51,013 nt of DNA. Origin: Minisyncoccota bacterium (GTDB taxonomy: Bacteria > Patescibacteriota > Minisyncoccia > UBA6257 > 02-FULL-45-10c). The position numbers were made by a program, and so were the translations under genes. The notes beneath the pieces were generated by a model that worked only from the letters and a program-made list of their open reading frames with translations, was not told the DNA's origin and ran no database searches. How positions within the stretch are numbered: position 1 is the stretch's first letter; each line of letters starts with the position of its first letter. The stretch lies in NCBI GenBank assembly GCA_036517155.1, contig DATDXY010000014.1:1-51013 (forward strand), in the 5' to 3' direction. Below, in pieces: positions 18,095 to 51,013 of the stretch.

Positions 18095-18184
18095 TGGCGG
18101 AAGGTGGAGGATTCGAACCTCCGAGAGGATTGCTCCTCTAGCGCATTTCAAGTGCGCCGCACTAGACCGCTATGCGAACCTTCC
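18095..18184 (-). tRNA. tRNA-Ser (anticodon UGA), CCA encoded
   Basis: The reverse complement folds as a cloverleaf: acceptor GGAAGGT/ACCTTCC, anticodon arm GCGCA-CTTGAAA-TGCGC, long variable arm, T arm GGAGG-TTCGAAT-CCTCC. Confidence 0.92.
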
Positions 18185-18187
18185 TTG

Positions 18188-18382: not shown

Positions 18383-18401
18383 TGTTCGGATACTTTAGTT
18401 T

Positions 18402-18410
18402 ATTATCGCA
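18402..18410 (-). promoter_or_regulatory. Extended -10 promoter element (TGcGATAAT) for the minus-strand tRNA operon
   Basis: On the minus strand TGCGATAAT lies 19 nt upstream of the tRNA-Arg 5' end. Confidence 0.45.
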
Positions 18411-18467
18411 GATTTTCCAAACGGCAGACAGTTCTCCACAGTTGAATATACTTGCAGGGAAATAATT

Positions 18468-18476
18468 TGCTATAAT
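18468..18476 (+). promoter_or_regulatory. Extended -10 promoter element (TGcTATAAT) driving the structured leader and zinc-ribbon/SWIB operon
   Basis: TGCTATAAT. It is divergent from the tRNA promoter and about 25 nt upstream of the first helix of the structured element. Confidence 0.5.
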
Positions 18477-18499
18477 CAATCTTAGTTTTGTACCTAGAG

Positions 18500-18737
18500 A
18501 TTGTGCTTATAAGAGGGTTGTTTTTATGAGAGCGTTTTTGTGTGAGGCTTAAACGATCTTATTGAAACACTGACCAGTAGACGCACATTGCCGGAAGGTT
18601 ATCGGACTTGGGCTTGAATTTATTTTTATATTTATATTCACCCTCCTAACCCACGCAACGCGGACACTGGTGAGTCGGTTATTTTTGACTATTCCGAATT
18701 CGGAGTCAAAAGTTGCCAACCCTCTTATAAGCGTGAT
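18500..18737 (+). ncRNA. Candidate structured RNA (four-way junction, class unknown); possibly the 5' leader of the downstream operon
   Basis: A 21-bp closing helix pairs 18500-18520 with 18717-18737. It encloses hairpin 18526-18562, a long irregular arm 18569-18675 and hairpin 18683-18711. G-U pairs are valid only for the + strand. No credible ORF is present. Confidence 0.5.
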
Positions 18738-18787
18738 ATACTGCCCCAAAAGGCCGAATATACCTAATTTATTAAACTTTTAATATT

Positions 18788-18952
18788 ATGGCAGGCGTAG
18801 AAGCATATTGCGTAAAATGCAAGGCAAAACGGGAAATGAAAGATGCGAAAGAAGTAAGCATGCAAGGCAAGGGTGGTAAAACCCGAAGAGCAATGACTGG
18901 CACATGCCCAAATTGCGGCACTAAAATGTTCCGTATTATGGGAGCTAAGTAA
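18788..18952 (+). CDS. Small zinc-ribbon protein (DUF5679-like), 54 aa, not in the ORF track
   Basis: MAGVEAYCVKCKAKREMKDAKEVSMQGKGGKTRRAMTGTCPNCGTKMFRIMGAK has the CxxC...CxxC layout and resembles DUF5679 small proteins. It is below the 60-aa track cut-off. Confidence 0.65.
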   Translation: MAGVEAYCVKCKAKREMKDAKEVSMQGKGGKTRRAMTGTCPNCGTKMFRIMGAK

Positions 18953-18982: not shown

Positions 18983-19237
18983 ATGGCAAAATCTAATTCT
19001 GCTTTCATGAAACCGATGAATGTCAGTTCGGAGTTGGCGGTGGTAATAGGCAAGGGCCCGATGCCGCGCGCGGAAGTAGTGAAGAAAATCTGGGTGTACA
19101 TCAAACAGCATAATCTTCAGGATCCAAAGAATAAACGGAACATTAATGCCGATGAGGCGTTAAAAAAAGTTTTTGGCGGAAAAGCTACCGTTAATATGTT
19201 TGAAATGACAAAACTCGTTTCAAACCACCTTTCTTAA
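18983..19237 (+). CDS. SWIB/MDM2 domain protein
   Basis: 84 aa. RAEVVKKIWVYIKQHNLQDPKNKRNINADEALKKVFG matches the SWIB domain pattern. Confidence 0.85.
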   Translation: MAKSNSAFMKPMNVSSELAVVIGKGPMPRAEVVKKIWVYIKQHNLQDPKNKRNINADEALKKVFGGKATVNMFEMTKLVSNHLS

Positions 19238-19262: not shown

Positions 19263-19298
19263 AAAATCCGTCCGCCAGTTGGCGGACGGATTTTGTGT
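19263..19298 (+). terminator. Intrinsic terminator after the SWIB gene
   Basis: AAAATCCGTCCGCC-AGTT-GGCGGACGGATTTT, a 14-bp stem followed by a T-rich tail. Confidence 0.8.
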
Positions 19299-19313
19299 TA
19301 AAGTGTCAGAAAA

Positions 19314-19403
19314 GGAGGGTTCGCATAGTGGTCTAGTGCGCCGCACTCGAAATGCGGTTGGGGAGAAATCCTCTCGAAGGTTCGAATCCTTCACCCTCCG
19401 CCA
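19314..19403 (+). tRNA. tRNA-Ser (anticodon CGA), CCA encoded
   Basis: Acceptor GGAGGGT/ACCCTCC; anticodon arm CCGCA-CTCGAAA-TGCGG; long variable arm; T arm GAAGG-TTCGAAT-CCTTC. Confidence 0.92.
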
Positions 19404-45973: not shown

Positions 45974-48900
45974 ATGAAACGCTTTGTCGCTTTTATTTTT
46001 ATTGGGTTGGTAACAATAGGCCTCTTTTATTTTGCACGCGAACGCGGCCACACTGCTACTGAAGTGATCGGCCTTGTGCGGCAAGATTGCACGGGTTTTT
46101 CTAATTGCTACACATCTCTTTCTGCTTGGGAAGCGGCGTATGGCGGGGTTTCTTTTGGCGCTTGTGCGCAAGGGGATTTAGTTTGCGCGGATAAAATCGC
46201 CACCGCTCAAATTGACGGAACTTGGACAACTCCAGATTCGACAGCGGTAAACGTGAATGGTTGGACTACTGATGTTAATCACTATATTAATTTTTACACC
46301 ACTTCCGTTGCCCGACACGCTGGTGTCTGGGATACGAATAAATATCAGTTAACAAGCGCGACGTACGCGGGATTTTTAATTAGCATCACCGGCGCTGGCC
46401 ACGTACGGATTGATGGGCTTCAATTATCGTTGCCACAAAATAATAATGGCGCGGCTGCCATTCTTGCAAATTATAGGAGCGTTGGTAGTGACATAAGAAT
46501 TTCTAATAATATTTTTCGAAAAGCAAGCGGCGCAAATGCCCAGCATGGAACCAAGTTAAATACTGATTCCAATTCTGGCCAAGGTGGGGATTTTCGAATA
46601 TGGAATAACATCGTTTACGATTTTACTGGAACGGGCAGCAGCGGTTTTTCCATGGGAATACGAGGAAATTTTTATGCGTACAATAATACGGTCGTTAATG
46701 GAACAACTGGTTTTGGCGGAGGGAATACCACAACGGTTCTAAAAAATAATATTGCCTCCGGCAATACTGCGGATTATTCCGGAACTTTTAGCGCAAGTTC
46801 TAATTACAATCTTGCCAGTAATGGCACTGCAACTGGCGGCGCAAATGATCGAATTAATCAGGTAGTGAGTTTCGCAAACTCAACGAGCAAAGATTTTCAC
46901 CTTTCTGCTGGTGATACGGCCGCAAAAGATTTTGGCGTTGATTTAAGCGCTGACGGCAGTTTGGCATTAACTACTGATATTGATGGGCAAACAAGGACCG
47001 GATCTTGGGATATCGGATCGGATGAGCAAGGCGCCAGCAGCGGAGGCGACACTCAAGCTCCATCCATTCCGTCTGGCTTGGCTGCTTCTGGTATTACTGC
47101 TTCTTCTCTAACTCTCAATTGGACCGCATCAACGGATAATGTGGGCGTACGAAACTATATTATTTATCGGAATGGATCTCCAATCGCCACCGTTGCTCAT
47201 CCCGCAACCACTTACCCCGATACTGGACTTTCTTCTAATACTTCTTATACCTACACTGTTGCCGCCGATGATGTTGCCGGGAATGTTTCTGCTCAATCAA
47301 CTTCTGTACTCGTCACAACTCAAGCGGGCAGCGACACGACTCCGCCAGTCCGTTCGAATGGCGCGCCATCAGGCAATCTTTCTGCTGGTACTACGCAGAC
47401 AACCATTTCTTTAGACACTAATGAAATTGCTACCTGTAAATATGGAACCGTTGCGGGTACTGCCTACGCTTCTTTGCCGAATACTTTTTCCACCACTAAC
47501 GCGATTGCTCATTCTCAACTGATTACCGGTTTAACCAATGGCACATCATATACATATTATGTGCGATGCCAGGATGCCGGCACGAATGTTAATCCGGATG
47601 ATTTTATTATTTCTTTTTCCGTCTCTATGCCTGGAGCTGGCGCGACTTACTACATTTCTCCAACTGGCAGCGACACGAATGCAGGTACCAGCGCCGCGCC
47701 GTGGAAAACTTTTTCCAAAGCATTTACTACAATGCAGGGCAGTGACATCTTGATTCTTAAAAATGGAACTTACACGCAAAGCACGACTGGTTTGATTAAT
47801 GATGACGCCGGGGGTTTTTCGGAAATTCCGCCAGCGGGGACCGTAGCTAATCCAACTATTGTCAAATCAGAAAATGATTTTCAAGCGACGTTGGATGGGC
47901 AAAATATAACTCAGCCATTATTAATTTATACGCGAGGCAATATGCAATTTGAAGGACTCCGTTTTAAAGATGGTCCTGGAGCAATAGCTCAACTGTATCG
48001 TAATGCTAAATATATTACGATTAAACGGTCTAGCTTTACTCAAAGTGTAGTGACTCAAGGGAATTACACTAATGTCGGCATTGGTGGTACGACTACGGAC
48101 AATAATAATAACGCTTATATTTTATTGGAAGATATTTGGATTAGTGGAGCCGGGAGATATATGTTTAATGTGTTTAATTCCAGCCATGTGACTGTTCGCC
48201 GGGCGGTGGTAAGGCGGTATGGAAACAATACTCCTAATCCCGGAAACCCTCAGTCTGGTTTTACAATCTATAACACCAATGATTCGGTATTTGAGAATAT
48301 TGTTGCCATTGATGGCAGCGAATATACGTCTGATACGGATCGCCGCGGCATATATATGGTTGGGAATAGCGGTATTTCTCCAAATACTACAACTAATAAT
48401 AATAAAATCTTGGGATGTGTTGCTTTGAATAATGATGTTGCTAGTCAATTTGCGATCGGCGGTTCATCTGGCGGAACCGGCAATCTTATTCAAAATTGCG
48501 TGTTTTGGGGTTCAAGTAATTTTGCAACCACTGGAACGATTACTTCCGTGAACGGTGCTGGCTTTACCGGCAATACCATTAGCAATGTAACGATGGGAGT
48601 TGGTAATTATGGTTGGGGGAATTTTAACAGTGCGAATACCACGATAAAGAATGTTATTTTCCAGGGTATCGGAACGGCTGGCGCGAATAATCAGGGTACA
48701 GTGAATTTAAGCTATGCCGGCCGTTTCAATACTCCTTCATTTGGGGCAACTTGTACGCTTGGTTGTATCACTACCAACCCAAGCTTGCTTTATTTAACTC
48801 GAATTGAAAGCACTTCGCCATACAAAGGGGCGGGTGAAGCAGGAGCGGATATTGGCGCAAACATATTGTATAAGTATGGAACGGACGGTTCTCGAGTTGG

Positions 48901-51013
48901 GGATGCAGGCGTCGAAACGTTGACTACAAATAATATTTGGCCTTGGCCTTATGAAGCGCAAATTAAATCTGATATTTGCGGAGTAGCCACGGCAAGCGGA
49001 CTTTGCGCTACTACTAAAACATTAACAGCGTATATTTGGGAATATTTAGGAAATACTTGTCCAGTTTCTGTGTGTGGTGGCAGTTCCGACACTCAAGCTC
49101 CATCTATCCCGTCTGGCTTGGCTGCTTCTGGTATTACTGCTTCTTCTCTAACTCTCAACTGGACCGCATCAACGGATAATGTGGGCGTAAATCACTATCG
49201 AGTCTTTCGAAACGGAACGCAAGTCAGCAATAATTCTACTCAAACTACTACCACTTTCAACGACATCGGATTATCTCCCAGTACCGCTTACACTTATACT
49301 GTTTCTGCGGTAGATGCTGCTGGGAATGTGTCTGCTCAATCAACCGGGCTCAATGTAGCAACCCAGTCCGGTGGAGGAGTAACTTATTATATTTCTCCTA
49401 CGGGAAATGATGCTAATGCTGGAACCAGCGCCGCGCCATGGAGAACTTTTGGAAAAGCATTTTCGACGATGACTGGGGGTCAAACTCTTGTGCTTAAAAA
49501 TGGAACTTATACCGCATCGGTTACGGGCTTAATCAGCACGGGCAGCGGCGCGCCATCGGGAGTGCCGCCAAGCGGTTCCGGAACTAACTACACAATTATT
49601 AAATCAGAAAATGATTTTCAAGCGACGTTGGATGGGCAAGGTACGCAAACTCCTCTTTTTTTAACCGATCGAGACCATATTCAATTTGAAGGATTACGGT
49701 TTGTAAATGGACCATCCAGCACAATTACTTTATGGGGTGCTGCGAAATATATTACGATTAAACGTTCGGGTGTGGTTCAGACGAATATGGCAAATGGAAA
49801 TGTTTCGAATGTTTCTATTGGCGGCAATGACCCGGATAGTTCCATGAATTCTTATATTTTACTGGAAGATTTCTGGGCAATTGGCACGGCGCGATATACG
49901 ATTCTGACATTTAATGCGAGCCACATTACAATGCGTCGGGTAGTAGCCCGGCGATTTGGCGCAACTGATCCGGGAGGTGGCGGATATAATCCGCAAGCTG
50001 CTATTACATTTTATAATACCAGTGATTCAGTTTTTGAAAATGTAATTGCGTTAGATAATGACCAATATTCTTCGCTTTCTGATCGGACTGGTATACAATT
50101 CGTTCCTAACAATATTTCCCAGAACGCAGTAAGCCAAGTTATTAATAATAAATTATTAGGTTGTATGTCGTTTGGGCACTACACCAATTCTCAATTTCTT
50201 TTGGCTGGTAACACGCTTGGAACAAATAATCTTATAGAAAATTGCGTTTTTTGGAATCATAAAACATTTCAAAATGTACAATATCCTCCTGCGGCTGCTG
50301 CGAATGCTGGAAATAATGTGAGTAATAATACCTATAAAAATGTGACGTTTGGCAGTTTTAGCAATATTACTGGTGCGTATGGTGTGGGAATTTTTAGTGG
50401 CGCATCTAATATCATTATTAAAAACTCTTTGTTTCAGGAATTAAATAGTACGGCGGTAAACAATCAGGGTTCTGGAAGTTTAAGTTTTTCCGGACTCTGG
50501 GGAACGCCGACTTGGGGATTAACTTGTACTGGTAATTGTTTAACTACTAATCCTGGATTGCTTTATATGACTAGGATTGAAAGCGGATCACCCTATAAGG
50601 GCGCCGGAGAATCGGGGGCAGATATTGGCGCGAATATTATAAATCGATATGGTGTCGATGGAACCAAGGTTGGTGATCCTGGGGTGGAAACACTTACAAC
50701 CAATGCGTTGTGGCCATGGCCTTATGAGAATCAAATTAAATCTGATATTTGCACAGCGACAGGTTTGACTACCGGATGGTGCGGAACAACTAAAACATTG
50801 ACGGCATATACCTGGGAATATTTAGGAAATACCTGCCCAACTTCTATTTGTAATGGTGGCGGCGGAGATACGACTGCCCCCTCCACCCCAACTGGTCTGA
50901 TCTCAACCTTCATCTCTTCCTCCCAAATCAATCTCTCCTGGACGGCCTCTACAGATAACGTAGGAGTCACTGGCTATAAGGTATACAGAGGAGGAGTAGA
51001 AATCGCTACTGCC
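45974..51013 (+). CDS. Giant modular surface protein (partial, at least 1680 aa): N-terminal TM, right-handed beta-helix domains (DUF1565/pectate-lyase-like) alternating with FN3 domains
   Basis: By manual translation the frame is open from ATG 45974 to the window end with no stop. It is absent from the track only because it lacks a stop. Recognised segments include MKRFVAFIFIGLVTIGLFYF (TM), YYISPTGSDTNAGTSAAPWKTF...LKNGTY (beta-helix N-cap, twice), FN3 units APSIPSGLAASGITASSLTLNWTASTDNVGV (twice) and a third, diverged unit at about 50867. Confidence 0.85.
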   Translation, partial: MKRFVAFIFIGLVTIGLFYFARERGHTATEVIGLVRQDCTGFSNCYTSLSAWEAAYGGVSFGACAQGDLVCADKIATAQIDGTWTTPDSTAVNVNGWTTDVNHYINFYTTSVARHAGVWDTNKYQLTSATYAGFLISITGAGHVRIDGLQLSLPQNNNGAAAILANYRSVGSDIRISNNIFRKASGANAQHGTKLNTDSNSGQGGDFRIWNNIVYDFTGTGSSGFSMGIRGNFYAYNNTVVNGTTGFGGGNTTTVLKNNIASGNTADYSGTFSASSNYNLASNGTATGGANDRINQVVSFANSTSKDFHLSAGDTAAKDFGVDLSADGSLALTTDIDGQTRTGSWDIGSDEQGASSGGDTQAPSIPSGLAASGITASSLTLNWTASTDNVGVRNYIIYRNGSPIATVAHPATTYPDTGLSSNTSYTYTVAADDVAGNVSAQSTSVLVTTQAGSDTTPPVRSNGAPSGNLSAGTTQTTISLDTNEIATCKYGTVAGTAYASLPNTFSTTNAIAHSQLITGLTNGTSYTYYVRCQDAGTNVNPDDFIISFSVSMPGAGATYYISPTGSDTNAGTSAAPWKTFSKAFTTMQGSDILILKNGTYTQSTTGLINDDAGGFSEIPPAGTVANPTIVKSENDFQATLDGQNITQPLLIYTRGNMQFEGLRFKDGPGAIAQLYRNAKYITIKRSSFTQSVVTQGNYTNVGIGGTTTDNNNNAYILLEDIWISGAGRYMFNVFNSSHVTVRRAVVRRYGNNTPNPGNPQSGFTIYNTNDSVFENIVAIDGSEYTSDTDRRGIYMVGNSGISPNTTTNNNKILGCVALNNDVASQFAIGGSSGGTGNLIQNCVFWGSSNFATTGTITSVNGAGFTGNTISNVTMGVGNYGWGNFNSANTTIKNVIFQGIGTAGANNQGTVNLSYAGRFNTPSFGATCTLGCITTNPSLLYLTRIESTSPYKGAGEAGADIGANILYKYGTDGSRVGDAGVETLTTNNIWPWPYEAQIKSDICGVATASGLCATTKTLTAYIWEYLGNTCPVSVCGGSSDTQAPSIPSGLAASGITASSLTLNWTASTDNVGVNHYRVFRNGTQVSNNSTQTTTTFNDIGLSPSTAYTYTVSAVDAAGNVSAQSTGLNVATQSGGGVTYYISPTGNDANAGTSAAPWRTFGKAFSTMTGGQTLVLKNGTYTASVTGLISTGSGAPSGVPPSGSGTNYTIIKSENDFQATLDGQGTQTPLFLTDRDHIQFEGLRFVNGPSSTITLWGAAKYITIKRSGVVQTNMANGNVSNVSIGGNDPDSSMNSYILLEDFWAIGTARYTILTFNASHITMRRVVARRFGATDPGGGGYNPQAAITFYNTSDSVFENVIALDNDQYSSLSDRTGIQFVPNNISQNAVSQVINNKLLGCMSFGHYTNSQFLLAGNTLGTNNLIENCVFWNHKTFQNVQYPPAAAANAGNNVSNNTYKNVTFGSFSNITGAYGVGIFSGASNIIIKNSLFQELNSTAVNNQGSGSLSFSGLWGTPTWGLTCTGNCLTTNPGLLYMTRIESGSPYKGAGESGADIGANIINRYGVDGTKVGDPGVETLTTNALWPWPYENQIKSDICTATGLTTGWCGTTKTLTAYTWEYLGNTCPTSICNGGGGDTTAPSTPTGLISTFISSSQINLSWTASTDNVGVTGYKVYRGGVEIATA
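47047..47149 (+). repeat. 103-nt near-identical intragenic repeat, copy 1 (FN3 N-terminus)
   Basis: 100/103 identical to 49087-49189, offset 2040 nt (in frame). Confidence 0.9.
47864..47902 (+). repeat. 39-nt identical intragenic repeat, copy 1 (KSENDFQATLDGQ)
   Basis: Identical to 49601-49639, offset 1737 nt (in frame). Confidence 0.9.
49087..49189 (+). repeat. 103-nt near-identical intragenic repeat, copy 2
   Basis: 100/103 identical to 47047-47149. Confidence 0.9.
49601..49639 (+). repeat. 39-nt identical intragenic repeat, copy 2
   Basis: Identical to 47864-47902. Confidence 0.9.

What the first reader, a model, noticed from the sequence alone, without database searches (positions are those of the whole stretch)
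18468..18787. About 238-nt four-way-junction RNA candidate behind an extended -10 promoter, leading a zinc-ribbon/SWIB operon
The 405-nt gap between the divergent tRNA operon and the first downstream gene has no credible ORF.

Seen directly:
- (i) TGcTATAAT lies at 18468-18476.
- (ii) 18500-18520 pairs with 18717-18737 over 21 bp. There are 16 contiguous Watson-Crick pairs (GCTTATAAGAGGGTTG / CAACCCTCTTATAAGC), extended by 5 pairs. Three of those five are G-U and exist only if the + strand is the RNA.
- (iii) Three arms lie inside this helix:
  - Hairpin 18526-18562 (TATGAGAGCGTTT / AAACGATCTTAT), with one G-U valid only on +.
  - A long irregular arm 18569-18675. Its successive helices are ACTGACCAGT..CGC/GCG..ACTGGTGAGT, TTGC/GCAA, GGTTA/TAACC, GG/CC, GGG/CCC and TGAAT/ATTCA, capped by a 16-nt AU loop.
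  - Hairpin 18683-18711 (TTTTGAC/GTCAAAA plus TCCG/CGGA, loop AATT).
- (iv) There is no terminator between the element and ATG 18788; the first terminator is at 19263-19298.

The element is therefore most simply the 5' leader of a DUF5679-like zinc-ribbon plus SWIB operon, which is a riboswitch-like or leader-like architecture. I could not match it by eye to RNase P, tmRNA, SRP, 6S or common riboswitch consensus sequences.
Basis: seen in the sequence. Interest (0 to 1): 0.7.

Follow-up and report, generated by a model that had tools for sequence, protein, structure and literature searches.

The report
Conserved four-armed RNA beside DUF5679
A conserved four-armed RNA with no match in Rfam lies just upstream of a zinc-ribbon/SWIB gene pair in a group of ultra-small groundwater bacteria (Parcubacteria); it is real and looks more like its own small-RNA gene than a riboswitch, but its function is unknown.

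Summary

I found the same element in nine diverged Parcubacteria lineages, always co-oriented just upstream of a DUF5679 gene. On a nine-sequence core alignment:
- 92.5% of pair cells are paired, against 38-50% when partners are slid.
- 18 pairs have changes on both sides.
- None of 500 shuffles reaches the observed pairing, compensatory-change counts or covariation score.
- On the eight-sequence alignment, 44 G-U cells against 6 A-C cells place the RNA on the + strand.

A 7-nt loop (UGUGAGG) is invariant and hairpin P4 is nearly invariant. The third arm varies from about 20 to 130 nt. Nothing in Rfam 15 matches.

The riboswitch-like leader reading is only partly supported:
- A second extended -10 promoter (P2, window 18713-18742) lies in or after the 3' strand of the closing helix in every lineage.
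- One relative has P2 and the gene but no element.
- In another, about 130 nt separate the element from P2.
- The closing helix is 21-23 bp, too long for a switching helix.

The best reading is a stand-alone structured small RNA made from its own promoter P1. A DnaA-box-like motif lies upstream of P1. No RNA-seq data were available, so transcript ends are unknown. I treat it as a candidate new RNA family.

The parts
18432..18440 (+). DnaA-box-like motif TTCTCCACA (consensus TTATCCACA), upstream of promoter P1
   Evidence: TCCACA(G/A) lies 29-33 nt upstream of the P1 -10 in all nine lineages. TTATCCACA is perfect in L004, L093, L095, L100 and L121, with one mismatch in the others. Binding by DnaA is an inference from the consensus only.
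18468..18476 (+). Promoter P1: extended -10, TGcTATAAT
   Evidence: Read. TATAAT or TATACT is conserved in all nine lineages at the same place. A conserved T(T)AG follows 4-6 nt downstream, which suggests a start near 18484. No transcript data exist.
18500..18519 (+). Closing helix (stem 1), 5' strand
   Evidence: MFE. In the core alignment 23 pairs are 90.8% paired across nine lineages, and 10 pairs have changes on both sides.
18520..18568 (+). Arm 2: irregular hairpin capped by the invariant loop UGUGAGG (18541-18547)
   Evidence: MFE. The loop is invariant in 9 of 9. Eight of the nine stem pairs next to the loop have compensatory changes. RNAalifold predicts the same hairpin independently.
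18569..18675 (+). Arm 3: variable arm (107 nt here) ending in an A/U-only loop
   Evidence: MFE. It is about 75% identical in L084/L097. In L004, L093, L095 and L121 it is replaced by a 7-bp hairpin with a GAAA-type tetraloop; 5 of its 7 pairs have a change on both sides. L096, L100 and L102 have long arms of different sequence.
18677..18717 (+). Arm 4: nearly invariant hairpin UUUUGACUauUCCGAAUUCGGAGUCAAAAG plus UUGCC
   Evidence: MFE. 100% and 97% of cells are paired. Changes are U-A to U-G, G-C to G-U, and one G-C to A-U (L096), all of which keep pairing only on the + strand. In the short forms UUUGCC pairs with GGaCAAA as the base of this arm.
18718..18737 (+). Closing helix (stem 1), 3' strand
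   Evidence: As for the 5' strand. GCGTGATATACT is invariant in seven lineages (six of them the P2-overlap lineages) while the 5' partner varies.
18713..18742 (+). Promoter P2 of DUF5679-SWIB: TTGCCA, 18 nt, TGaTATACT
   Evidence: Promoter scan: 10 of 12 matches with an upstream TG. There is an equivalent extended -10 in all nine lineages and in the element-less L105, where it reads TTGCCC-17-TGGTATACT.
18749..18756 (+). 5'-UTR motif AAAGGCCG (AAAGGUCG in relatives)
   Evidence: It lies 31-49 nt upstream of the DUF5679 ATG in lineages with and without the RNA. It belongs to the gene unit, not to the RNA.
18788..18952 (+). DUF5679 zinc-ribbon gene (54 aa)
   Evidence: Pfam PF18930, E = 5e-11.
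18983..19237 (+). SWIB/MDM2-domain gene (84 aa)
   Evidence: Pfam PF02201, E = 2e-32.
19267..19298 (+). Intrinsic terminator of the DUF5679-SWIB unit
   Evidence: Terminator scan: stem 19267-19286 followed by a T run.

Best explanation
The element is the gene for a structured small RNA found in a subset of Parcubacteria. It measures about 155-265 nt from helix end to helix end, and about 238 nt here.

**Shown**
- The + strand folds into a four-way junction that evolution maintains.
- A 21-23 bp helix joins the 5' and 3' ends.
- Arm 2 carries an invariant UGUGAGG loop.
- Arm 3 is freely variable.
- Arm 4 is almost invariant in sequence.

**Inferred**
- The RNA is transcribed from its own extended -10 promoter P1, starting near 18484. 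A DnaA-box-like site lies upstream of P1.
- The long terminal helix defines and protects the ends. It may do so through the U-rich tract that follows it in most lineages, or through RNase III-type trimming.
- The invariant loop and arm 4 are recognition surfaces for a partner, most plausibly a protein. The adjacent DUF5679 and SWIB proteins are the obvious candidates.
- DUF5679-SWIB has its own promoter P2. In most lineages P2 is written into the 3' strand of the terminal helix, so P1 transcription must cross P2. The two units may therefore be coupled by occlusion or read-through.
For: **Structure**
- Single-sequence folds give z = -7.2, -4.7 and -8.6 in the three lineages tested against shuffles. 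All nine lineages give the same architecture.
- On the nine-sequence core alignment, 92.5% of cells are paired against 38-50% in slid controls.
- 18 pairs have changes on both sides, against 3-9 in slid controls. None of 500 shuffles reaches the observed pairing, compensatory-change counts or covariation score.
- RNAalifold on an unspliced MAFFT alignment of four lineages predicts the same four helices. Twelve of those pairs are compensatory.

**Strand**
- On the eight-sequence alignment, 44 G-U cells against 6 A-C cells favour the + strand.

**Independent gene unit**
- P1 (-10 box, TTAG start region, upstream box) is conserved in 9 of 9 lineages.
- P2 is present in 9 of 9 and in the element-less L105.
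- In L121 the intact RNA scores 79.7 bits and sits about 130 nt upstream of P2. The spacer is A/T-rich and holds an AU hairpin followed by a T run.
- A run of at least 4 U follows the helix within about 12 nt in L004, L093, L095, L096 and L102.

**Purifying selection**
- A diverged strain in run X6 has 0 changes in the 102 RNA positions it covers, but 14 in the adjacent 162 nt of spacer and CDS. By my own arithmetic this has a chance probability of about 0.001.

**Not a known family**
- Rfam gives no match.
Against: - No transcript data exist at all. The promoters, the start site and the 3' end are inferred from sequence only.
- In the window and in L097 there is no U tract or terminator between the helix and the ATG. 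P1 transcripts may simply run into DUF5679-SWIB.
- In all nine lineages the RNA is co-oriented with, and directly upstream of, DUF5679. This is what a cis-acting leader looks like. However, every search that found it was anchored either on those genes or on a pattern that included P2, so an unlinked copy would have been missed.
- The AU hairpin in L121 fails the terminator scan's G-C criterion.
- No partner protein was tested.
Confidence: 0.45

Rival explanations
1. It is a cis-acting structured 5' leader of a long P1-driven mRNA isoform of DUF5679-SWIB. The 21-23 bp helix would be an RNase III-type processing site, or the invariant loop and arm 4 would bind the encoded DUF5679 or SWIB protein for autoregulation, as in ribosomal-protein leaders or the E. 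coli rnc and pnp leaders. P2 would supply basal expression.
For: - Linkage and co-orientation with DUF5679 are strict in 9 of 9 lineages, while the upstream neighbour can differ. L095 has no tRNA directly upstream.
- The window has no terminator between the element and the ATG.
- The helix length meets the roughly two-turn dsRNA requirement of RNase III (established knowledge). The length is conserved.
- Both downstream proteins look like nucleic-acid binders.
Against: - A conserved promoter lies between or overlapping the element and the gene in all lineages.
- The gene unit P2 + AAAGGUCG + DUF5679 exists without the element in L105 and in many other lineages.
- The 130-nt insertion in L121 left the RNA intact.
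- There is no conserved complementarity between the element and the UTR or start region (uninformative).
Confidence: 0.3
2. It is a metabolite-sensing riboswitch: the four-way junction is an aptamer that controls the downstream operon.
For: - It is a conserved multi-helix junction with invariant loop nucleotides, upstream of and co-oriented with genes.
- Four-way-junction aptamers are known, for example SAM-I and cobalamin (established knowledge).
Against: - No expression platform is present: no terminator/antiterminator alternative and no sequestration of the start region.
- The closing helix of 21-23 bp is too stable to switch.
- A promoter separates the element from the gene.
- The junction has almost no unpaired nucleotides to form a pocket.
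- The downstream genes are not metabolic. Rfam gives no match.
Confidence: 0.05
3. It is a DNA-level feature rather than an RNA. Candidates are nested palindromes acting as operator sites or a cruciform at the P2 promoter, or the relic of a miniature inverted-repeat mobile element inserted between tRNA-Arg and DUF5679.
For: - The minus strand also folds well (z = -6.7).
- Arm 4 contains the perfect palindrome TCCGAATTCGGA just upstream of the P2 -35.
- The element is absent from the same tRNA-Arg/DUF5679 junction in L105, as an insertion would be.
Against: - G-U cells outnumber A-C cells 44 to 6, so pairing is kept on the + strand only.
- The arms of the closing helix differ between lineages but stay complementary. 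That indicates selection on pairing, not on a transposase or operator sequence.
- The element is single-copy in the window and in every locus held.
- The distance from the palindrome to the P2 -10 varies: 33, 44, 66 and more than 150 nt.
Confidence: 0.05
4. It is a highly diverged member of a known housekeeping or effector RNA class: 6S-like RNA polymerase-binding RNA, Y-RNA-like, T-box-like tRNA-Arg sensor, or a self-cleaving ribozyme such as twister-sister or hairpin.
For: - The ends are paired in a long helix, as in 6S and Y RNAs.
- The arrangement of an sRNA gene directly upstream of a protein gene recalls ssrS-ygfA (established knowledge).
- The invariant loop contains AGG, the codon read by the neighbouring tRNA-Arg(CCU).
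- Four-way junctions occur in hairpin and twister-sister ribozymes (established knowledge).
Against: - No Rfam model scores even at E <= 10 on the window, or E <= 5 on six homologous loci.
- There is no central bubble or long internal stem; arm 3 can be only 7 bp.
- No Ro/Rsr-type gene and no aminoacyl-tRNA-related gene lies nearby.
- No T-box sequence or antiterminator is present.
Confidence: 0.07

Closest known systems
Orphan structured ncRNA motifs found by comparative genomics (for example raiA, OLE and HEARO-type motifs in Rfam)
   Same: It is a multi-helix fold conserved by covariation, with invariant loop nucleotides, a lineage-restricted distribution, a fixed gene neighbourhood and no known function.
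   Different: It has no sequence or structure match to any of the 4227 Rfam 15 models. It is restricted, as far as seen, to Parcubacteria and to the DUF5679-SWIB neighbourhood.
6S RNA (ssrS) and its ssrS-ygfA arrangement
   Same: It looks like a small RNA gene with its own promoter, directly upstream of and co-oriented with a protein gene. The 5' and 3' ends are closed by a long helix. In most lineages the helix contains promoter-like sequence.
   Different: It is a four-way junction rather than a rod with a central bubble. The internal arm can shrink to 7 bp. Rfam 6S models do not match.
RNase III-processed stems (rRNA precursor stems; rnc and pnp leaders of E. coli)
   Same: A near-perfect dsRNA helix of at least 20 bp brackets a functional RNA or sits in a 5' leader. 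The helix length is conserved.
   Different: Cleavage is untested. The interior is a conserved junction with sequence-invariant elements, not rRNA or a simple hairpin.
Four-way-junction riboswitch aptamers (SAM-I, cobalamin)
   Same: It is a four-helix junction located upstream of genes.
   Different: The P1 helix is 21-23 bp. There is no expression platform, a promoter intervenes, and no Rfam model matches.
Bacterial Y RNAs (YrlA) next to rsr
   Same: A long stem is formed by both ends, with a structured module attached. The gene lies next to genes for candidate protein partners.
   Different: No Ro/TROVE gene is nearby, no tRNA-like module is recognisable, and no Rfam model matches.

Membership tests
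Any Rfam 15 family (4227 models, including riboswitches, T-box, 6S, SRP, RNase P, tmRNA, Y RNA-like and self-cleaving ribozymes) | Covariance-model score at or above the family's gathering score | tested here: not met
   The window gives no match at gathering thresholds other than tRNAs. Region 18383-18830 gives nothing at E <= 10. Six homologous loci give nothing on the element at E <= 5 beyond one noise-level hit (mir-4766, E = 0.81, over the arm-2 hairpin of L099).
Riboswitch (generic) | Conserved aptamer fold upstream of the regulated gene | tested here: met
   The fold is conserved with covariation in nine lineages upstream of DUF5679.
Riboswitch (generic) | Expression platform: a mutually exclusive terminator/antiterminator, or sequestration of the ribosome-binding site, coupled to a short P1 | tested here: not met
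   There is no terminator between the element and the ATG in the window. P1 is 21-23 bp. Promoter P2 lies between the element and the gene. No conserved pairing to the UTR was found.
Riboswitch (generic) | Specific ligand binding | not testable with these tools
   This needs in-line probing or ITC.
T-box leader | Specifier loop, conserved T-box sequence and antiterminator, upstream of an aminoacyl-tRNA-related gene | tested here: not met
   The only resemblance is AGG in the invariant loop. RF00230 does not match. The downstream genes are DUF5679 and SWIB.
6S RNA | Rod-like fold with a large central bubble between a closing stem and a long internal stem | tested here: not met
   The consensus is a four-way junction with almost no unpaired junction nucleotides, and arm 3 can be 7 bp. 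RF00013-type models do not match.
MITE or other inverted-repeat mobile element | Multiple dispersed copies with conserved terminal inverted repeats | tested here: not met
   The 51-kb window holds one copy. Each held locus has one copy, in the orthologous position. The arms differ between lineages while staying complementary. Copy number in a complete genome could not be tested.
Retron msr-msd RNA | Reverse-transcriptase gene directly downstream of an RNA flanked by a1/a2 repeats | tested here: not met
   The downstream genes are DUF5679, SWIB and DoxX. No RT domain appears among the Pfam hits of the neighbouring genes scanned or called.
RNase III substrate | About two turns (20 bp or more) of nearly uninterrupted dsRNA | tested here: met
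   The helix has 20-23 pairs in all nine lineages, with 90.8% of cells paired.
RNase III substrate | Cleavage by RNase III | not testable with these tools
   This needs an in vitro cleavage assay or end mapping in vivo.
Sigma-70-type extended -10 promoters (P1 and P2) | TGnTATAAT-like box at the right place, conserved in relatives | tested here: met
   P1 (TGcTATAAT, 18468-18476) and P2 (TGaTATACT, 18734-18742) were read. Equivalents are present in 9 of 9 lineages. Promoter activity was not tested.
DnaA box | Match to TTATNCACA | tested here: met
   The match is perfect in 5 lineages and has one mismatch in 4, including the window's TTCTCCACA. The spacing from the P1 -10 is fixed at 29-33 nt. 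DnaA binding was not tested. There is no oriC signature here.
Intrinsic terminator formed by the closing helix | U tract directly after the helix | tested here: inconclusive
   A run of at least 4 U lies within about 12 nt in L004, L093, L095, L096 and L102, but not in the window, L097 or L100. The base of the helix is A/U-rich.

The most novel reading that the evidence does not exclude
It may be a new class of Patescibacteria-specific functional RNA. One version is the RNA subunit of a ribonucleoprotein with the neighbouring DUF5679 zinc-ribbon and/or SWIB proteins. Another is a DnaA-controlled small RNA whose terminal helix is physically interleaved with the promoter of those chromatin-type genes. 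The second version would link replication status to their expression through an RNA/promoter overlap not described before.
Probability: 0.2. Interest if true: 0.8.

Novelty: new variant of a known kind. Interest (0 to 1): 0.6.

Why it matters
- Candidate Phyla Radiation bacteria have tiny genomes, and I found no paper describing a lineage-specific non-coding RNA of this kind in them.
- This is a strongly covarying RNA of 155-265 nt, kept across lineages whose neighbouring ATPase is only about 58% identical. An RNA retained that long is likely to do something that matters.
- Its invariant loop and hairpin give direct handles for pull-downs.
- Its position next to two very widespread but uncharacterised proteins offers a way into their function. 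Those proteins are DUF5679 and the highly conserved bacterial SWIB.
- For annotation, it removes a spurious 73-aa ORF call in relatives.
- It also shows that two promoters, not one leader, organise this locus.

Tried and rejected
- **Rfam.** Searched at gathering thresholds and at permissive E-values, on the window and on six homologous loci. Nothing matched.
- **MITE or repeat.** The element is single-copy.
- **Replication origin**, prompted by the DnaA-box-like motif. GC skew stays positive across the window and there is no cluster of boxes. Rejected.
- **Protein-coding.** Stop-free frames over the element give short local matches in several frames on both strands, as conserved DNA would. 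No single frame spans the element, and the arms differ by 30-110-nt indels. This is a weak test, but it is consistent with non-coding sequence.
- **T-box, 6S, SRP, Y RNA, retron.** Their defining features are absent (see the membership table).
- **Pairing between the element and the DUF5679 UTR or start region.** RNAduplex gave only long, non-conserved duplexes. Uninformative.
- **RNA-seq evidence.** Three searches for RNA runs found none (window, L093, L095).
- **ATPase-anchored genome scan.** It mostly returned unrelated loci. Only L004 was useful.
- **Viral contigs.** No match to the arm-4 pattern.
- **SWIB loci without DUF5679** (P0004, P0018) **and DUF5679 loci in other contexts** (P0128, P0133, P0148, P0154). 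None has the element.
- **Literature searches.** Nothing describes this RNA.
Full report
**1. Observation**

- TGcTATAAT lies at 18468-18476.
- 18500-18520 is complementary to 18717-18737: 16 Watson-Crick pairs plus 5 more, 3 of them G-U.
The energy is -89.8 kcal/mol against -57.2 +/- 4.5 for shuffles, z = -7.2, and 0 of 200 shuffles fold as well.
- The minus strand also folds well (z = -6.7), so one sequence cannot decide the strand.
- The element is single-copy in the window.
- It has no Rfam 15 match at gathering thresholds or at E <= 10.
- The terminator scan finds nothing before ATG 18788, and finds the terminator at 19267-19286.
It reads TTGCCA, 18 nt, TATACT, with an upstream TG, at 18713-18742, inside the 3' strand of the closing helix.

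**2. Surroundings and origin**

- On the minus strand to the left lie tRNA-Ser, tRNA-Ala and tRNA-Arg(CCU), then a P-type ATPase.
- On the plus strand to the right lie DUF5679 (54 aa), SWIB (84 aa), a terminator, tRNA-Ser and DoxX.
- Identical DNA occurs in groundwater and soil metagenomes.
- The ATPase's nearest relatives are Parcubacteria/Patescibacteria MAGs at no more than 60% identity.

**3. Homologues**

BLAST of the element against fetched loci found a syntenic copy in L004. This is a GTDB MAG whose ATPase is 58% identical to the window's. Its gene order is tRNA-Arg, element, DUF5679, SWIB, tRNA-Ser.

Further copies came from three routes:
- contigs that encode close SWIB or DUF5679 homologues;
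- one DNA-pattern scan of metagenome contigs;
- a covariance-model search of the loci already held.

Nine distinct versions result: window, L097 (= L083/L084/L099), L004, L093, L095, L096, L100, L102 and L121. Every one lies directly upstream of, and co-oriented with, a DUF5679 gene.

The element is absent from several related loci:
- L105, which has tRNA-Arg, a promoter and DUF5679 only;
- DUF5679 genes in other contexts;
- SWIB genes without DUF5679.

**4. Structure is conserved by covariation**

Each lineage folds on its own into the same architecture.

RNAalifold was run on an unspliced MAFFT alignment of the four short forms. It predicts a 22-bp closing helix and three arms, with 12 pairs changed on both sides. 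Five of those lie among the 7 pairs of arm 3.

For all nine lineages I spliced the alignable core and named the structure. The core is the 5' strand of the closing helix, arm 2, arm 4 and the 3' strand, anchored on invariant motifs. The result is 126 columns, gap-free except for 2 nt. On this alignment:

| Measure | Observed | Slid controls |
|---|---|---|
| Cells paired | 92.5% | 38-50% |
| Pairs with changes on both sides | 18 | 3-9 |
| Covariation score | 0.38 | 0.06-0.11 |

None of 500 shuffles reaches the observed pairing, compensatory-change counts or covariation score. One of 500 reaches the observed number of further pair types.

Caveat: I built that alignment with the helices in mind. 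The RNAalifold result and the single-sequence folds are the independent checks.

Two further lines of evidence:
- On the eight-sequence alignment, 44 cells are G-U and only 6 are A-C. Pairing is therefore kept on the + strand (92%) and not on the minus strand (about 81%).
- A diverged strain in run X6 has no change in the 102 RNA positions it covers, but 14 changes in the adjacent 162 nt of spacer and CDS. By my own arithmetic this has a chance probability of about 0.001.

**5. Anatomy**

- The closing helix is 21-23 bp in every lineage.
- Arm 2 is an irregular hairpin with an invariant UGUGAGG loop (window 18541-18547).
- Arm 3 varies widely.
  - It is a 7-bp hairpin with a GAAA-like tetraloop in four lineages.
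  - It is a 100-130-nt irregular arm ending in a 16-25-nt A/U-only loop in five lineages, the window included.
- Arm 4 reads UUUUGACUnnUCCGAAUUCGGAGUYRAAAG plus UUUGCC and is almost invariant. Its few changes (U-A to U-G, G-C to G-U, one G-C to A-U) keep pairing.
- The junction has almost no unpaired nucleotides.
- L095 carries an extra hairpin between the closing helix and arm 2.

**6. Two promoters, not one leader**

Upstream, three islands are conserved in 9 of 9 lineages:
- a TTATCCACA-like box, which matches the DnaA-box consensus. It is perfect in five lineages and reads TTCTCCACA at window 18432-18440;
- the -10 box of P1, 29-33 nt further on;
- a T(T)AG 4-6 nt after that, which implies a start near 18484.

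Downstream, every lineage has a second extended -10 box, P2.
- In six lineages P2 lies within the 3' strand of the closing helix. There GCGTGATATACT is invariant, and only the 5' strand changes to keep pairing.
- In L100 and L102 it lies 8-40 nt beyond the helix. In L121 it lies about 130 nt beyond.
- L105, which lacks the RNA, has TTGCCC-17-TGGTATACT in the equivalent place.
- After P2 comes a 5'-UTR motif, AAAGGUCG, 31-49 nt before the ATG. It is shared by DUF5679 genes with and without the RNA.

So P2 + UTR + DUF5679(-SWIB) is a complete unit, and the RNA with P1 is a module placed in front of it.

**7. Interpretation**

It is well supported that this is a genuine, selected, + strand structured RNA. 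I put that at about 0.9.

*Stand-alone small RNA (0.45).* I favour an RNA whose ends are sealed by the long helix, and whose invariant loop and arm 4 are recognition surfaces for a partner. The reasons are:
- P1 and P2 are separately conserved.
- Element-less relatives keep the same gene unit.
- The RNA is intact in L121 despite separation from P2.
- A U-rich tract follows the helix in five lineages.

*Cis-acting leader (0.3).* The main rival is a leader of a long mRNA isoform, processed at the helix (RNase III-type) or bound by DUF5679 or SWIB. It is supported by the strict linkage and by the lack of any terminator in the window.

*Other readings (about 0.05 each).*
- A metabolite riboswitch is unlikely. 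The closing helix is 21-23 bp, there is no expression platform, a promoter intervenes, and the downstream genes are not metabolic.
- DNA-level or mobile-element readings are contradicted by the G-U asymmetry, the compensatory changes and the single copy.

No RNA-seq run holding these sequences could be found. Transcript ends remain the key unknown.

**8. Comparison with known families, and novelty**

No Rfam family matches the window or the homologues. Literature searches found nothing on this RNA.

It resembles 6S and Y RNAs only in having paired ends and a position next to protein genes. It resembles RNase III substrates in helix length. It resembles four-way-junction riboswitches in topology. 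The defining features of each were either tested and not met, or are untestable here (see the membership table).

I classify it as a new RNA family within the known kind 'lineage-specific structured bacterial ncRNA'. The one unusual feature is a terminal helix whose 3' strand doubles as the promoter of the next gene.

Interest is moderate to high (0.6). The covariation evidence is strong and the clade is poorly explored. Against that, the known distribution is narrow, there is no transcript evidence, and the function is unknown.

Noticed in passing
window 18749-18756; L105, L106/L111, L116/L118, L121, L100, L102 (31-49 nt upstream of the DUF5679 ATG): A short motif, AAAGGUCG(C) (AAAGGCCG in the window), is conserved in the 5' UTR of DUF5679 genes from very different lineages, with or without the structured RNA. 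It is too far from the ATG to be a Shine-Dalgarno site. It may be a regulatory or start-region signal of DUF5679 genes.
   Followed up: partly
window 18432-18440; same position in L004, L093, L095, L096, L097, L100, L102, L121: A DnaA-box-like motif (TTATCCACA, perfect in five lineages) sits at a fixed 29-33 nt upstream of the -10 box of the RNA's promoter. There is no GC-skew switch and no cluster of boxes, so this is not an origin. It may mean DnaA controls this promoter.
   Followed up: partly
L083 1923-2144, L084 1123-1344, L098 1116-1337: Public gene calls place a 73-aa hypothetical ORF with no Pfam hit over the RNA element in the close relative. This is very probably a spurious call.
   Followed up: partly
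window 18095-18186 and 19312-19403: tRNA-Ser(TGA) on the minus strand and tRNA-Ser(CGA) on the plus strand form a 92-nt inverted pair, 88% complementary. The pair brackets tRNA-Ala, tRNA-Arg, the RNA, DUF5679 and SWIB. The same gene set is syntenic in L004.
   Followed up: no
window 47047-50856: Several direct-repeat families (73-93% identity, spacing 1737-2043 nt) indicate diverged tandem paralogous genes at the right end of the window.
   Followed up: no
window 18983-19237: The 84-aa SWIB protein is exceptionally conserved. The 120 listed clusters are 82-100% identical to it, out of 7959 scoring E <= 1e-20. Named sources span several Parcubacteria lineages (Yanofsky-, Giovannoni-, Zambryski- and Liptonbacteria), although the adjacent ATPase is only about 58% identical in the nearest MAGs.
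   Followed up: no
window 18619-18634; equivalent loops in L097, L096, L100, L102: All five long forms of arm 3 end in a 16-25-nt loop made only of A and U, although the arm sequences are otherwise dissimilar. The short forms have a GAAA-type tetraloop instead.
   Followed up: no
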